64,000 nt of DNA from an uncultured Mycoplasmatota bacterium (GTDB lineage Bacteria; Bacillota_I; Bacilli_A; RF39; UBA660): the NCBI GenBank assembly GCA_947571135.1, contig CANOWY010000005.1, positions 479 through 64,478 of the forward strand, in the 5' to 3' direction. The notes beneath the pieces are model-generated. The model ran no database searches and was not told the DNA's origin. It was given only the letters and a program-made list of their open reading frames with translations. The first letter of the stretch is position 1. Each line of letters opens with the position of its first letter. This document shows positions 21,101 through 25,776 of this stretch, piece after piece. The position numbers were made by a program, and so were the translations under genes.

Positions 21101-21221
21101 ATTGATTCTCCTTTTCTATTTATAGTATAACAAATTTTTTTATATAAATAAAAGTTTTAGACATTTTTAACGTAAACAAAATAAAAGTATGGTATACTTA
21201 ATTTATAATAAGGGTGATACT

Positions 21222-24200
21222 ATGAAAATTACTTTGTTTTTACCTGATAAATTAGTTGATTTTAAACTTCCTTCTTTAGTTTCAGGTAATTTTTCTTTTG
21301 ATTCGGAAAAAGTCGAAAGTAAGTTAATAAATGTAATTGCAAAAGACAATCAGTGGTTTTTATACCAGACAGAAGATGTAAAAATTGTATCAAATAATGT
21401 CTATATTTCAGAGGTTCTTTTAGTACCTAATCATTTTTATGTGTTAGAACGTGAAAAGAACCAATATTTAATTTATGCTGCTTCTTTATCGTTTGGAGGA
21501 ATACTTGCTTATTCTTTTTTAGAAAATAGTACGTTTTCGATTGGCAATACTACAAATAGTACGATTCGCTATAATATTCCTTATTTAAATAATATGGGAA
21601 TTCAAATTGAGTGTAAAAACCATCAATTAACTTTACAATATACGGGAACAAAACCGATTTATATTAATCAAAAAAAATTAGAAAGTTCTTTTTATCAAAT
21701 TTTAATAGGAGATGAGTTAAATGTATATGGCTTAACTGTTTTATTTTTGCATGGTCTTCTACTTATAAAACCTCTAAAAGAATTAACTGTAGACGCTCGG
21801 GGGGGGTATCTTACAAAGTTTGATTTTCCCTGACGCAGAACCTCCACAAAATATAGAAGTAAAAGATGTAGAACTTTATTCTGAAAAAGATTATTATTCC
21901 AAGTCTCCTAGATTACGTAGAGTGATTACAACAGAGACTATAAAACTTTCTGCTCCACCTAAAAGTGGAGATAGTAAAGAAGTTCCAGTTCTATTGATTA
22001 TTGGTCCAATGCTTACAATGGGAATTACATCTGTTATGATGCTTACAAATACACTTATGAACATTAATATAGGGAGAACTACATTTAGTGATTCATGGCC
22101 ACAACTTGTAATGAGTGGAGCCATGCTTGTATCTATGCTAGTATGGCCTTTAATAACTCAGTGGTACAATCGTCGCCAGAAAAAGAAAAATAAAAAGGAA
22201 ATCATCGAAAAATATACGAAATATTTACAAGAAAAGGAAAGGGAATTAGAAGGAATACGTGAGCAACAAAAAATTATTTTGTACGAAAACCTAATTCCGA
22301 TTGAAGATTGTTTGACCATTATGCAAAATAAAAATATTCATTTTTGGGATAAGCGTATTGACCAAAGCGATTTTTTAGTAGTGCGTCTTGGAATAGGACG
22401 TGAGTTTTTTGATGCTAAAATTGAATATCCTGAAGAAGGGTTTACAATTGAAGAAAATGAACTACGAGACAAAGCGGATGCTTTGGTACGAGATTTTCAG
22501 TTTATCGAAAATGTTCCTCTTGGTTATTCACTATATGAAAATAAGATTACGGCGATTATGGGGACTTTAACCAAATCTATCTATTTTACCCAAAATTTAT
22601 TAGTGCAACTTCTTACTTTTTATAGTTATGAAGATTTAAAAATTGTTTTGTTTACGGAAGAAGAGAGATGTGAAGACTGGAAGTTTATTAAATATTTGAA
22701 TCATAGTTTTGATAATGAAAAAAGTATTCGTTTCTTTTCTAAAAATAAAGAAGATTCTAAAGAAGTTTCTGAGTATTTAAATATGGTTTTTAATATGCGT
22801 AAATCTTCTAACGAAAAAGAGCCATATCATAAACCCCATTATGTAATAGTAATTGATGGATGGGATAATATTTATCAAAATGATATTATTAAGAATTTGA
22901 CAGAAGAAGATACTGATTTAGGGTTTAGTATTATCATTATAGAAAACAGTATGGGAAAACTTCCAAGTAAGTGTAATAATTTCATTTCTTTGGACGGTGG
23001 TTCTTCTAAAGTATTAAAGAATGCTTATAATGAACAAATTCAAATGTTTTTTAAAGAAGAAATTCATTATAATATTCCCATGCTTACGATTGCTAAAAAT
23101 TTATCAAATATTCCGATTGAGTTTGAAGATGGATTTAAAGAACTTCCCAATGCCATTTCTTTTCTAGAAATGGAACGTGTTGGAAAGGTTTCGCAGTTAA
23201 ATATCTTGAACCGTTGGAATGTAAATGATTCTACAAGTAGTTTGCGTGCCGAAATTGGCGTTGATGAACGTGGAGATGTGATGTATTTGGATTTACATGA
23301 AAAGTATCATGGGCCACATGGTTTGATTGCTGGGATGACTGGAAGTGGAAAATCTGAGTTTATCATTACTTATATTTTATCTATGGCAATTAATTATAGT
23401 CCAGATGATGTCGCCTTTATTTTGATTGACTACAAAGGTGGTGGTCTTGCATTTGCTTTTGAAAATAAGGCAAGTAATATGGTTTTGCCTCATTTGGCTG
23501 GAACGATAACAAACCTAGATAAAGCAGAGATGGACCGTACATTAGTTAGTATCGATAGTGAAATTAAATATCGTCAGAAAGTGTTTAATGAAGCAAGAGA
23601 TTTAATGGGAGAAAGTACAATTGATATTTATAAGTACCAAACATTCTATAAAGAAGGAAGATTGAAAGAACCAATTCCCCATTTATTTATAGTGTGTGAT
23701 GAGTTTGCCGAGTTAAAGGCGCAACAACCTGATTTTATGGATAACTTGATTAGTGTTGCACGTATTGGACGTAGTTTAGGGGTTCATCTTATTTTAGCAA
23801 CGCAAAAACCAAGTGGAGTTGTTAATGATCAAATTTGGTCCAACACGAAGTTTAGAGTGTGTTTGAAAGTACAAGATGAATCAGATAGTAGAGAAATGTT
23901 AAAAAGACCTGAAGCCGCTAGTATAAAGCAAACGGGAAGATTTTATTTGCAAGTTGGTTTTGATGAATATTTTGCTTTAGGACAATCTGCTTGGTGTGGT
24001 GCTAAGTATTATCCATCTGATAAAATTATGAAACAAGTAGATAAAAGTCTTAATTATATCAATTCTTATGGTAGAGTGATTAAAAGTATTCAGGCAACAA
24101 GTACAGTTACAATCCCTGCTGAAGGAGAACAACTAGCCAGTATTCTAGGAGAGATTATTTCCATTTCTAATGCTACTCATAGGCAGGCTAGACGTTTATG

Positions 24201-25776
24201 GCTTCCTAATATTCCTGAGATTATTTTAGAACCAGATGTTATGAAAAAGTATGATGTTATATCAAAACCTTTTTCAATTTCTGCAGTCATAGGAGAGTAT
24301 GACGCACCAGAACGTCAAGAGCAAGGAATTGTTACTTATCACTTTTTAAAAGATGGTAATACTCTTATTTATGGGAATGATGGTAGTGAACGTGAAATGC
24401 TTTTAAATGCCATTCTTTATTCTTCTGTTAAGAATCATACTGTAGAAGAAATCAATTTTTATATTGTGGATTTTGGCTCAGAATCTTTAAGAAGATATCA
24501 ATCACTTTTGCATATGGGTGGTATTGTATTTGCAGGAGAGGATGAAAAGTTTCATAATTTATTAAAACTTTTACGTGAGGAGATACAAACTCGTAAAAAG
24601 TTATTTGCAGATTTTGGTGGAGATTATGAAAACTATATAGAATCTAGTGGTAAAACCCTTCCTTTGAAAGTCGTTATGATCAACAACTATGAATCTGTAT
24701 ATGAAACATATCCTGAAGTATATGACGAAATTCCTGAACTTGTGAGAGATTCGGAGAGGTATGGAATTGTTTATATTTTTACGGCGACGGCGATTAATGG
24801 CATTCCTAGTAAGATTACTCAAAATTGTAAAAATGTCTATGCCTTTAAGTTGAAAGATAGTAGTGATTACATTTCTGTTTTTGGTGTGCGTACTAGGGTA
24901 ACTCCGCGGGATATAAAGGGAAGAGGACTATTAAATAACGATGGAATTCATGAGTTTCAAGTATGTAGCATTCAAGAAGATGAGAATATTTTAAATTCTT
25001 ATTTAGCACAATTTATTGAAGAACAAAATCAAAAGAATAAGAAAAAAGCTAAGAAAATTCCAGTGTTACCAGAAGTTGTTCGCTTAGAGGATGTCAAAGA
25101 AGAATTTAAATCTATTCATCAAATTCCAATTGGGATTAGTAAAAAGGAATTAGAAGTCGTGACTATAGATTTATTTTCTAATTTAGGAAATATGATTGCT
25201 TCTAATCGTCTTTATAATACAGAGAAGTTTTTAAAAAGTTTGCTTTCTTTATGTCGTATGCTACCAAATACGAATGTATTAGTAATTGATCCTTTAGCGA
25301 GTTTGAAATTAGATAAGATACAGTACCCAAATTACTATACAAGCAAATTAGATGAAGTCTTAGAACAAATTTCTCTTTACATTAAAAAGTTAAACGAAAG
25401 TCAAAGCAGTGCACAGGGAATTTTGTTTGTTTACGGTATTAATAGATTTATTAATAAACTAAAAGATCCAGCAAAGTGGTCAGAATTTGTGAAGTTAATA
25501 AAGGAGTCTGAACGGATTTCATTGGTTATTTTAGATGATGCCAGTAAGTTAAAAGCGTATACTTTTGAATCTTGGTTTACAAGTATCTTTACGACAAGTG
25601 ATGGTATATGGATAGGCAGAGGAATCTCGGATCAAAATTTATTACGCTTATCCACAATTTCAAAAGAAATGACTTTGGATTATAAAACCGATATGGGATA
25701 TTTTGTTTCGGAAAATATTGGAGTATTAACTCGTTTTATTGATTTTGTAAGTAAGGAGGAGGAAGATGAAGAATAA
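21222..25776 (+). CDS. essC: T7SSb FtsK/SpoIIIE-family ATPase EssC/YukB-like, interrupted by +1 frameshift at G8 tract (segments 21222..21833 and 21820..25776)
   Basis: N-terminal FHA-like segment, TM region, three P-loop ATPase domains (GMTGSGKSE, Walker B FIVCDEFAEL); removing one G from 21799-21806 fuses both ORFs into one ~1517-aa protein. Confidence 0.85.
21799..21806 (+). repeat. G8 homopolymer tract inside essC (frameshift site)
   Basis: Only long poly-G in an AT-rich window; sits exactly at the frame change. Confidence 0.9.

What the first reader, a model, noticed from the sequence alone, without database searches (positions are those of the whole stretch)
21189..25776. essC (T7SS ATPase) interrupted at a G8 homopolymer, a possible phase-variable switch
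The FHA-like N-terminal ORF (ends 21833) and the 1318-aa FtsK-ATPase ORF (from 21820) are in different frames. The frame changes exactly at the G8 run 21799-21806. Removing one G yields ...VDARGGILQSLIFPDAEPP... and a single ~1517-aa EssC-like protein. A G8 tract is highly atypical in this roughly 30% GC sequence. The explanation is either a homopolymer sequencing error or genuine slipped-strand ON/OFF switching of the T7SS motor.
Basis: seen in the sequence. Interest (0 to 1): 0.75.

Follow-up and report, generated by a model that had tools for sequence, protein, structure and literature searches.

The report
Variable poly-G tract switches essC off
The motor gene (essC) of a type VII secretion system in an uncultured gut bacterium carries a run of G's whose length differs between otherwise near-identical strains (8, 9, 10 or 11), so the gene is intact in some populations and frameshifted in others, and this window holds an 'off' copy.

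Summary
G8 lies at 21799-21806 and the frame changes there. It separates a twin-FHA N-terminal ORF from a 1318-aa TM+ATPase ORF, and the joined product is a bona fide EssC (TIGR03928, 986 bits).

It is very unlikely to be an assembly error. Independent assemblies of the same species (99.3-100% identical DNA) carry G8 (window plus 3), G9 (3), G10 (3 seen as DNA, about 11-14 contigs by protein) and G11 (2). Both local haplotypes carry several tract lengths. Contigs with zero SNPs relative to the window carry G8, G9 or G11. No other coding indel exists in 16.6 kb of the locus.

A sister species encodes the same ARGGGIL peptide with an interrupted run (G4AG5), and all its full-length copies are intact. 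Another relative has its own variable G10 tract elsewhere in the FHA region. Group B Streptococcus essC has a published equivalent.

The best reading is a slipped-strand, probably reversible ON/OFF (contingency) tract. This makes it a new member of a known kind. Switching within a clone and the secretion phenotype remain untested.

The parts
21799..21806 (+). Poly-G tract, G8 in this window (an out-of-frame OFF allele). It is G10 in intact alleles of the same species and G9 or G11 in other OFF alleles.
   Evidence: sequence. (tract length counted in L001-L010 and simulated products). (haplotype table).
21222..25776 (+). essC (T7SSb FtsK/SpoIIIE-type ATPase), frameshifted at the tract. It gives 1518 aa when the tract is G10.
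   Evidence: TIGR03928 EssC 986 bits (cutoff 778); 100%-identical intact protein P0001 in other samples. B. subtilis YukB 9qks_G, E 1.9e-119.
21222..21833 (+). N-terminal fragment produced from the G8 allele. It holds the twin FHA domains (aa 1-~190) plus 9 out-of-frame residues and stops at TGA 21831-21833. ORF callers start it at ATG 21189.
   Evidence: translation. AlphaFold2 pLDDT 92.9; the top Foldseek hits are 9qks_H (YukB), 1wv3 and 5fwh (EssC twin-FHA structures). PF00498 FHA in 16 of 27 orthologues.
21210..21217 (+). Shine-Dalgarno-like AAGGGTGA 5 nt upstream of ATG 21222, the likely true essC start.
   Evidence: Seen in sequence. Orthologues all begin MKI/MRI.L.L at this position.
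21820..25776 (+). Downstream ORF in the native EssC frame, 1318 aa from TTG 21820. It holds the linker, two hydrophobic helices (aa 253-275 and 294-313 of the joined protein), and the FtsK-like ATPase domains (Walker A GMTGSGKS at aa 704). No good SD precedes the TTG, so it is probably not translated efficiently in the OFF state.
   Evidence: PF01580, 6e-38; hydropathy, Walker A.
25766..26032 (+). An 88-aa gene overlapping the end of essC. It is conserved immediately downstream of essC in nearly all 80 related species and is a ubiquitin-like, YukD/EsaB-like candidate. It is intact here.
   Evidence: orthologues after essC in the loci. UBL families in 12 and YukD PF08817 in 4 of 33 members (weak).
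26038..33306 (+). Remainder of the putative T7SS gene cluster, with ORFs of 1053, 227, 254 (kinase-like), 219, 190 (sub-threshold WXG100), 109, 81 and 233 aa. ORF lengths from 26038 to 31363 are identical to those of the G10 (ON) strain, and the compared stretch up to 31776 has no indel.
   Evidence: family scans. (same gene lengths in L001; the only coding indel in 16.6 kb is the G tract).

Best explanation
The G run in the linker between the twin-FHA module and the first transmembrane helix of EssC is a hypermutable simple-sequence repeat. Slipped-strand mispairing during replication adds or removes G's. G10 (in principle also G7 or G13) reads ...ARGGGILQ... and makes full-length EssC, so the T7SS motor is ON. 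G8, G9 and G11 shift the frame, so translation stops 3-12 codons after the tract and only a ~200-aa FHA fragment is made (OFF). The window carries a heritable G8 OFF allele in an otherwise intact secretion locus. One +2 slip, or two +1 slips, would restore it.

Shown here:
- The tract-length polymorphism.
- Its exact correspondence with intact versus split products.
- Its recurrence on different haplotypes.
- The absence of other lesions.

Inferred:
- That changes arise by replication slippage at high rate within a clone.
- That OFF alleles abolish secretion.
- That the tract is maintained by selection as a contingency (bet-hedging) switch.
For: 1) The 90%-identity cluster of this protein holds intact 1529/1518-aa forms and also 214-, 211- and 215-aa N-terminal fragments with 1318-aa partners. 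Simulating tract lengths reproduces these exactly: G8 gives 214 aa, G9 gives 211, G10 gives 1529 and G11 gives 215.

2) DNA of independent assemblies shows:
- G10 in L001-L003.
- G8 in L004-L006, plus the window.
- G9 in L007, L009 (NCBI MAG GCA_949032945.1) and L010.
- G11 in L008.

3) These contigs are 99.3-100% identical to the window. Across 16.6 kb the only indels relative to the G10 strain are the tract and one intergenic base at 20227. None of the 14 A/T runs of 7 or more differ.

4) Haplotype A (window type) carries G8, G9 and G11 with zero SNPs, and G10 at protein level (P0122, P0131, P0132). Haplotype B carries G10 and G9. The tract therefore changes recurrently and much faster than point substitution.

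5) Natural controls:
- Sister species P0005 (68% aa identity) encodes the same ARGGGIL with CGGGGAGGGGGT, and all 4 full-length members are intact.
- In eight clusters without a tract, about 113 of 120 listed members are full length. The focal cluster has 5 OFF among 12 sequences (Fisher p = 0.0015).

6) Convergence. The P0008 species has its own G10 at codons 145-148, with G9 alleles in 3 assemblies. Its 90%-identical relative P0009 has an interrupted run there.

7) Precedent. GBS essC has a G tract whose -1/-2 alleles truncate EssC to 166 or 173 aa (PMC9900821).

8) OFF is probably null. S. aureus EssC lacking the FHA domains gave no secretion and no detectable protein (PMC4925161). The YukB FHA region binds the YukC pseudokinase (PMC9600267).

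9) The tract encodes the start of a flexible linker (pLDDT falls to 64 at aa 191-196) in the most variable part of the alignment, so an extra Gly should be tolerated.
Against: - No reads were available, so within-sample heterogeneity and the switching rate are unmeasured.
- Several informative contigs are low coverage (2.7-5.9x SPAdes k-mer coverage) and come from one run of ENA accessions (ERZ1486xxxx). The single G9 and G11 calls on the window haplotype (L007, L008) could therefore be stutter or consensus errors.
- G8 alone is not rare by shuffling (11 of 100).
- In the P0008 species essC is also knocked out by two different nonsense mutations. Irreversible loss therefore also occurs in this clade, and the tract could be merely a mutational weak spot.
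- Apart from a weak YukD-like and a sub-threshold WXG100-like protein, no other T7SSb core component was recognised in the window. What the system secretes is unknown.
Confidence: 0.73

Rival explanations
1. Sequencing or assembly artefact. The true tract in this genome is in frame (G10 or G7), and G8 is a homopolymer miscall.
For: G runs of 8 or more are error-prone in library PCR and on Illumina. Some comparison contigs have only 3-6x coverage. No reads could be inspected.
Against: - G8 is reproduced with 100% flanking identity in three other assemblies from different samples (L004-L006). The same 214- and 1318-aa products are on record from NCBI, ENA and Logan assemblies.
- G8 is two steps from the modal G10, whereas errors should cluster at +/-1.
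- The window has no other coding indel and no A/T-run indel relative to other strains over 16.6 kb.
- Clusters without a tract show almost no split essC.
Confidence: 0.06
2. Non-adaptive decay. The tract is only a mutational hot spot, and the G8 allele is a pseudogene on its way to loss, because T7SS is dispensable or costly in this reduced gut lineage. It is not a maintained reversible switch.
For: In the related P0008 species essC also carries TCA>TAA and CAA>TAG nonsense alleles on many contigs. About 40% of focal-species assemblies are OFF. GBS subtype II shows the same mixture.
Against: - There are no secondary lesions anywhere in the focal locus.
- essC differs from the ON strain at only 11 codons, with pN/pS of about 0.3.
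- ON and OFF lengths coexist on both haplotypes, which implies repeated changes in both directions or very recent ones.
- Codon usage makes an uninterrupted run very improbable (8e-5).
- Two lineages have pure G10 where their nearest relatives have interrupted runs.
Confidence: 0.14
3. OFF alleles are not null. A functional two-piece or FHA-less EssC is made by termination-reinitiation at TTG 21820, or the frame is restored in a fraction of products by transcriptional or ribosomal slippage on the G run.
For: - The G9 frame stops at a TGA overlapping the in-frame TTG (TTGA), and the G8 frame stops 11 nt after it.
- Gene callers annotate a 1318-aa second ORF.
- The GBS authors raise the same possibility.
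Against: - TTG has no Shine-Dalgarno site at a useful distance. The G run ends 13 nt upstream.
- S. aureus EssC without the FHA domains was undetectable and inactive.
- In the P0008 species the tract lies inside FHA2, so a split there would cut a beta-sandwich. This argues that simple early truncation is the shared logic.
Confidence: 0.07

Closest known systems
Homopolymeric G tract in essC of group B Streptococcus T7SSb, subtypes II and IV (Spencer et al. 2023, PMC9900821)
   Same: - Same gene, same repeat type (poly-G) and same region (the 5' FHA-coding part).
- Alleles lacking 1 or 2 G's truncate EssC to ~170 aa, with a predicted long second ORF.
- The evidence is observational, from comparing genomes.
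- Slip-strand regulation is proposed but not demonstrated.
   Different: - The organisms are unrelated: an uncultured low-GC gut Bacilli/'Tenericutes' MAG lineage versus Streptococcus.
- The position differs. Here the tract is at codons 193-196, in the linker after FHA2. In GBS truncation is at 166 or 173 aa.
- Here +1, -1 and -2 alleles are all seen, on two haplotypes.
- The tract is absent from most relatives: only 6 of 120 orthologue clusters even have GGG in the N-terminal region. It therefore arose independently.
Poly-G/C contingency loci of Campylobacter jejuni (also Neisseria, Haemophilus and Helicobacter SSR phase variation)
   Same: An intragenic G8-G11 run in an AT-rich genome. Length changes toggle the reading frame near the 5' end of a gene for a surface or secretion function. 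Alleles of several lengths coexist in natural populations.
   Different: In those organisms switching rates, reversibility and phenotypes are measured, many loci per genome are involved, and mismatch-repair status is known. None of that is known here. Only one tract is visible in the 64 kb available.
Homopolymer-tract phase variants affecting ESX-1 (T7SSa) in Mycobacterium tuberculosis: the espA upstream tract, espK and espR (PMC10334774)
   Same: Homopolymer indels recur independently in lineages and tune a type VII secretion system.
   Different: They affect regulators and accessory genes or promoters, not the EccC/EssC motor. They are 7-bp A/T or C tracts in a GC-rich genome. T7SSa lacks the FHA module.
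B. subtilis yukA/yukB, formerly annotated as two genes and now the single EssC homologue YukB/YukBA (own knowledge; the name YukBA appears in PMC4925161)
   Same: An EssC homologue that appears as two ORFs in a database record.
   Different: As I recall it, that split was a one-off sequence or annotation error. Here the split recurs with three different out-of-frame lengths in independent assemblies.

Membership tests
EssC (T7SSb FtsK/SpoIIIE-family ATPase, NCBIfam TIGR03928) | Full-length match to the curated equivalog model above its cut-off | tested here: met
   985.9 bits against a cut-off of 778.4, aa 223-1497 on model positions 4-1286/1296 (joined protein). YukB 9qks_G, E 1.9e-119.
EssC (T7SSb FtsK/SpoIIIE-family ATPase, NCBIfam TIGR03928) | Two N-terminal FHA-fold domains (the T7SSb-specific module) | tested here: met
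   model of aa 1-196 with pLDDT 92.9, all-beta; best PDB matches are 9qks_H, 1wv3 and 5fwh (E 3e-7 to 1.4e-6). PF00498 in 16 of 27 orthologues, although not in the focal sequence itself.
EssC (T7SSb FtsK/SpoIIIE-family ATPase, NCBIfam TIGR03928) | Two transmembrane helices followed by FtsK-like P-loop domains with a Walker A in D1 | tested here: met
   hydrophobic segments at 253-275 and 294-313, and GMTGSGKS at 704. PF01580, 6e-38, two stretches.
EssC (T7SSb FtsK/SpoIIIE-family ATPase, NCBIfam TIGR03928) | Encoded with other T7SSb core genes (EsxA/WXG100, EsaA, EssA, EssB, EsaB) | tested here: inconclusive
   Only a conserved 88-aa UBL/YukD-like gene (weak) and a 190-aa protein with a sub-threshold WXG100 hit (E 0.02) were found. 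No EsaA, EssA or EssB/YukC family hit appeared anywhere in the window. A kinase-like 254-aa gene is present.
SSR-mediated phase-variable (contingency) locus | Uninterrupted mononucleotide repeat of about 7 or more inside, or just upstream of, the 5' part of an ORF | tested here: met
   G8 at codons 193-195 of a 1517-aa ORF, and G10 in intact alleles.
SSR-mediated phase-variable (contingency) locus | Repeat-number polymorphism among very closely related genomes, with the rest of the gene conserved | tested here: met
   G8, G9, G10 and G11 in contigs 99.3-100% identical. The tract is the only coding indel in 16.6 kb.
SSR-mediated phase-variable (contingency) locus | Repeat number determines in-frame (ON) versus out-of-frame (OFF) translation | tested here: met
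   (simulation) matches the products on record.
SSR-mediated phase-variable (contingency) locus | Recurrent or reversible change (the same lengths arising on different backgrounds, ON and OFF on one background) | tested here: met
   haplotype A has G8, G9, G10 and G11, and haplotype B has G9 and G10. This is an inference from homoplasy, not observed reversion.
SSR-mediated phase-variable (contingency) locus | High-frequency switching within a clonal population (about 1e-5 to 1e-2 per division), and mixed lengths within one sample | not testable with these tools
   No reads and no cultures were available.
SSR-mediated phase-variable (contingency) locus | Switch changes the phenotype (T7 secretion on or off) | not testable with these tools
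   Inferred only, from the S. aureus EssC-deltaFHA result and the YukB-FHA/YukC interaction.

The most novel reading that the evidence does not exclude
Poly-G contingency tracts may have been recruited independently, at different codons, to the FHA-coding 5' end of essC in several host-associated Bacillota. Three cases are known: this species (codons 193-196), the P0008 species (codons 145-148) and group B Streptococcus (around codons 160-170). In each MAG case the nearest relative encodes the same Gly-Gly-Gly with an interrupted, stable run. That would make the T7SSb motor a recurrent target of population-level bet-hedging in gut and mucosal commensals, for example trading interbacterial killing against cost, phage or immune exposure. 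It would also make synonymous 'purification' of Gly codons to GGG the evolutionary route to the switch. One species (L085) may have an additional tract in a neighbouring T7SS membrane-protein gene.
Probability: 0.35. Interest if true: 0.7.

Novelty: new member of a known kind. Interest (0 to 1): 0.55.

Why it matters
T7SSb systems deliver antibacterial toxins and shape competition in Bacillota, but how commensals regulate them in the gut is largely unknown. The bacteria concerned here are uncultured.

A heritable, probably reversible ON/OFF tract in the motor gene would have three consequences:
- Metagenome-assembled genomes that appear to have a 'broken' essC may simply be in the OFF phase.
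- Populations of one strain may be mixtures of armed and unarmed cells.
- T7SS activity could be read directly from tract length in metagenomic reads.

The same device recurs at different positions in a related species and in group B Streptococcus. This suggests a general selective pressure to toggle this machine.

For annotation, the split essC should be recorded as one phase-variable gene, not as two genes or an assembly error.

Tried and rejected
- A JGI metagenome scan for the tract plus its left flank gave one hit (L102). It is an unrelated 40%-GC chance match.
- The GTDB species-representative scan did not return the focal species itself, so its exact taxon name and the rest of its genome (mismatch-repair genes, other poly-G tracts) could not be examined. 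The nearest records are labelled uncultured Tenericutes/Bacilli gut MAGs.
- phmmer and profile searches of the N-terminal region against PDB sequences gave only marginal FHA hits (E 0.1-1). The fold comparison was needed to confirm the FHA module.
- The exact look-up of the L095 EssC failed, so allele variation at its G8 tract is unknown.
- PDB and Pfam searches of the 1053-, 219-, 227- and 284-aa neighbours found nothing usable.
- Programmed ribosomal frameshifting as the designed mechanism is rejected. A designed site would be conserved in length, whereas the tract varies and an in-frame allele is the commonest.
- An alternative genetic code (TGA read as Trp, as in some Mollicutes) is rejected. 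TGA ends 8 of 44 long ORFs, and essC has no in-frame TGA.
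Full report
**Observation**

The window (GC 28.5%) contains GGGGGGGG at 21799-21806. This is the only G or C run longer than 6 in the 64 kb.
- Upstream, an ORF runs from ATG 21189 to TGA 21831-21833 and ends ...TVDARGGYLTKFDFP*. The more likely start is ATG 21222, which follows an AAGGGTGA ribosome-binding site and matches the MKI.L.L start of every orthologue.
- Downstream, a 1318-aa ORF begins at TTG 21820 in another frame and ends at 25776.
- Removing one G, or adding two, fuses them into a 1517- or 1518-aa protein.

The one overstatement is that G8 is 'highly atypical': 11 of 100 dinucleotide-preserving shuffles contain a G8.

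**What the gene is**

The fused protein is an EssC.
- It scores 986 bits on NCBIfam TIGR03928 (cut-off 778).
- Its best solved relative is B. subtilis YukB (9qks, E 1.9e-119), matching from residue 217 onward.
- It has two hydrophobic helices (aa 253-275 and 294-313) and a Walker A motif, GMTGSGKS, at aa 704.

The N-terminal 196 residues have no sequence-level PDB match. An AlphaFold2 model built on 27 orthologues is confident (pLDDT 92.9), all-beta, and best matched by the EssC/YukB twin-FHA structures 9qks_H, 1wv3 and 5fwh. PF00498 (FHA) hits 16 of 27 orthologues.

The tract encodes residues 193-196, just after the last strand of FHA2. Model confidence drops to 64 there, and this is the most variable stretch of the orthologue alignment. 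It is a linker in which one extra Gly should be harmless.

**Population evidence**

A search of about 5.8 billion proteins found a 100%-identical intact protein, P0001 (1529 aa, counted from ATG 21189). Its 90%-identity cluster holds 16 sequences:
- Intact forms of 1529 and 1518 aa.
- N-terminal fragments of 214, 211 and 215 aa.
- C-terminal ORFs of 1318 aa.

Replacing the tract in silico by G4 to G12 reproduces these lengths exactly: G8 gives 214, G9 gives 211, G10 gives 1529 and G11 gives 215. G7 would give 1528, which is not observed.

DNA fetched for these entries confirms the lengths:

| Tract | Loci | Source |
|---|---|---|
| G10 | L001-L003 | three SRA runs |
| G8 | L004-L006 | three ENA assemblies |
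| G9 | L007, L009, L010 | ENA; NCBI MAG GCA_949032945.1; Logan |
| G11 | L008 | ENA |

The natural ON allele therefore reads ...ARGGGILQ... with G10. The window is an OFF allele two bases short.

**Is it an artefact?**

- The comparison contigs are 99.3-100% identical to the window.
- Against the G10 strain, 16.6 kb of alignment shows about 100 substitutions but only two indels: the tract and one intergenic base at 20227. None of the 14 A/T runs of 7 or more differ. Generic homopolymer error is therefore excluded.
- G8 is reproduced, with identical flanks, in three other samples. The same products are on record from NCBI, ENA and Logan assemblies.
- G8 is two steps from the modal length.

A caveat remains. 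Several contigs have only 3-6x coverage and similar ENA accession numbers, so single calls such as G11 in L008 could be stutter. No reads could be examined.

**Rate and recurrence**

Variable sites around the tract define two haplotypes.
- Haplotype A (window, L004-L008) shows G8 four times, plus G9 and G11, with zero SNPs between them. At protein level the same haplotype (Leu186) also occurs with G10 (P0122, P0131, P0132).
- Haplotype B shows G10 and G9, the latter on two sub-haplotypes.

The tract has therefore changed at least three or four times on a genealogy in which about 3.2 kb accumulated some 19 variable sites. As a rough inference, that is two to three orders of magnitude faster per site. 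ON and OFF states occur on both backgrounds, as expected for a reversible switch.

The focal locus carries no secondary damage. essC differs from the ON strain at only 11 codons (5 synonymous, 6 non-synonymous; pN/pS about 0.3), and the downstream genes have identical lengths.

**Natural controls and convergence**

- The closest other species, P0005 (68% identity), has the same ARGGGIL peptide encoded by CGG GGA GGG GGT. This is an interrupted run, and all four full-length cluster members are intact.
- In eight orthologue clusters without any tract, about 113 of 120 listed members are full length. The focal cluster has 5 OFF among 12 N-terminus-bearing sequences (Fisher p = 0.0015).
- With this genome's codon usage (CGG 1.1% of Arg, GGG 15% of Gly), the probability of encoding RGGG as an unbroken G10 is about 8e-5.
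- A third species, P0008 (67% identity), has its own G10 tract at a different place, codons 145-148 inside FHA2.
  - It is G10 in six intact assemblies and G9 in three assemblies with no other lesion.
  - It is G9 or G10 in a lineage that also carries a TCA>TAA nonsense codon.
  - One contig has an 11-nt G6TG4 version.
- The 90%-identical relative of P0008, P0009, has an interrupted ACGGGGGGAGGCG at that site.
- Across 80 species-representative essC loci (1.06 Mb) only four G/C runs of 7 or more exist. Two are in essC and one (G10) is at the 5' end of a membrane-protein gene 1.4 kb downstream of essC.
- Only 6 of 120 orthologue clusters have even a Gly-Gly-Gly in the N-terminal 240 residues.

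The tracts are thus rare, lineage-specific and independently placed.

**Known precedent**

Spencer et al. (PMC9900821) reported a homopolymeric G tract in essC of group B Streptococcus. Loss of one or two G's truncates EssC to 166 or 173 aa in most subtype II genomes, and a possible 1291-aa second ORF is predicted. They hypothesised slip-strand regulation without testing it. Homopolymer phase variants also tune ESX-1 in M. tuberculosis (PMC10334774). No other essC example turned up in the library. Mechanistically, the closest well-studied analogues are the poly-G contingency genes of the AT-rich Campylobacter jejuni (own knowledge; PMC8437040 is listed).

**Consequence of OFF**

The G8 allele yields a 203-aa twin-FHA fragment.

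The downstream ORF could only start at TTG 21820. No ATG or GTG occurs before the first transmembrane helix, and the TTG has no properly spaced Shine-Dalgarno site. The G9 frame stops at a TGA overlapping that TTG (TTGA), and the G8 frame stops 11 nt beyond it, so termination-reinitiation cannot be excluded.

Two published results argue against an active product. S. aureus EssC without its FHA domains was undetectable and non-secreting (PMC4925161). The YukB FHA region is the contact with the YukC pseudokinase (PMC9600267). In the P0008 species the tract cuts inside FHA2, which argues that simple early truncation, not a designed two-piece protein, is the shared outcome.

**Context**

The window is ordinary chromosome and shows no other broken genes. 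It carries NAD metabolism genes, a two-component system, an ABC transporter, GroEL, LigD, two tRNAs and a small integrase/recombinase island. TGA is used as a stop codon, so the standard bacterial code applies.

Downstream of essC lie:
- A conserved 88-aa UBL/YukD-like gene.
- A 1053-aa protein with no family.
- 227-aa and 254-aa genes, the latter kinase-like.
- 219-aa and 190-aa helical proteins, the latter with a sub-threshold WXG100 hit.

EsaA, EssA and EssB were not recognised, so the make-up of this T7SS is only partly established.

**Verdict**

The feature is real. The window carries the OFF (G8) allele of a polymorphic poly-G tract that toggles essC, and G10 is the ON length. A slipped-strand, probably reversible phase switch is the best explanation (about 0.73). 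The alternatives are a non-adaptive hot spot or decay (about 0.14), leaky or split expression (about 0.07) and artefact (about 0.06). It is a new member of a known kind. Its added interest is the apparent convergence of poly-G tracts on the 5' end of essC in unrelated Bacillota.

Noticed in passing
L012-L021, L104-L110 (essC nt ~433-442 of the P0008 species, 67% aa identity to the window's EssC): An independent G10 tract lies inside FHA2 (aa NGNGGGVY). It is G10 in six intact assemblies and G9 in three assemblies (L105-L107). It is G9 or G10 in a lineage that also carries a TCA>TAA nonsense codon 45 nt downstream (L012-L015). L104 has an out-of-frame G6TG4. A divergent strain (L108-L110) has a stabilised G5TG4 plus a CAA>TAG nonsense at codon 379. 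essC is thus inactivated by several routes in that species.
   Followed up: partly
L085:12065-12074: A G10 tract at about codons 27-30 (MKIERYRENKKVRNTLLTLGIASVILGGGYNL...) of a membrane-protein gene 1.4 kb downstream of essC in another gut Bacilli MAG. It may be a second phase-variable T7SS-locus gene. The locus ends 10 nt after the tract.
   Followed up: no
L095:6348-6355 and L026:6899-6906: Two more G8 runs lie inside essC of other species. One is at nt 348, in the FHA region (QEGGV). The other is at nt 2212, inside the invariant LIDYKGGG motif of ATPase D1. Allele variation could not be checked: the look-up failed for L095, and the L026 cluster has a single member.
   Followed up: partly
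window 29851-30615 (+): A 254-aa Hanks-type Ser/Thr kinase-like gene (Pkinase 1.4e-27, HCDLK catalytic loop retained, no obvious TM) sits inside the T7SS cluster, next to an FHA-bearing EssC. Canonical T7SSb has the pseudokinase EssB/YukC in this role. Whether this is an EssB replacement or an active kinase is open.
   Followed up: no
window 26038-29199 (+): A 1053-aa protein directly after the YukD-like gene has no Pfam, NCBIfam or PDB match. It has a helical N-terminal part, a Gly/Ala-rich hydrophobic core (about aa 440-560) and a Cys/His-containing C-terminal domain. It may be a large T7SS effector or a divergent EsaA-like component. It is followed by an unassigned 227-aa gene.
   Followed up: partly
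window 25766-26032 (+), and the gene after essC in L011-L101: An 88-aa gene overlapping the essC stop codon is conserved immediately downstream of essC in nearly all 80 species. Family members give weak ubiquitin-like and YukD (PF08817) hits, but the focal sequence gives none.
   Followed up: partly
window 31440-32012 (+) and 30704-31363 (+): Two helical proteins of 190 and 219 aa. The 190-aa one has a sub-threshold WXG100 hit (E 0.02) with YWQD in place of WxG. Both are candidate substrates or LXG-associated helpers.
   Followed up: no
window 43549-47495: tRNA-His is followed by an rve-family integrase (44599-45531) and a large serine recombinase (45759-47495). This is probably a small integrated mobile element.
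   Followed up: no
window 13049-13964: About 900 bp contains only short overlapping ORFs on both strands and has no Rfam hit at gathering threshold. It may be non-coding or a degraded gene.
   Followed up: no
window 20227: The only other indel relative to the G10 strains in 16.6 kb is a G3/G2 difference in the intergenic spacer between two minus-strand genes, next to a SNP at 20222.
   Followed up: yes
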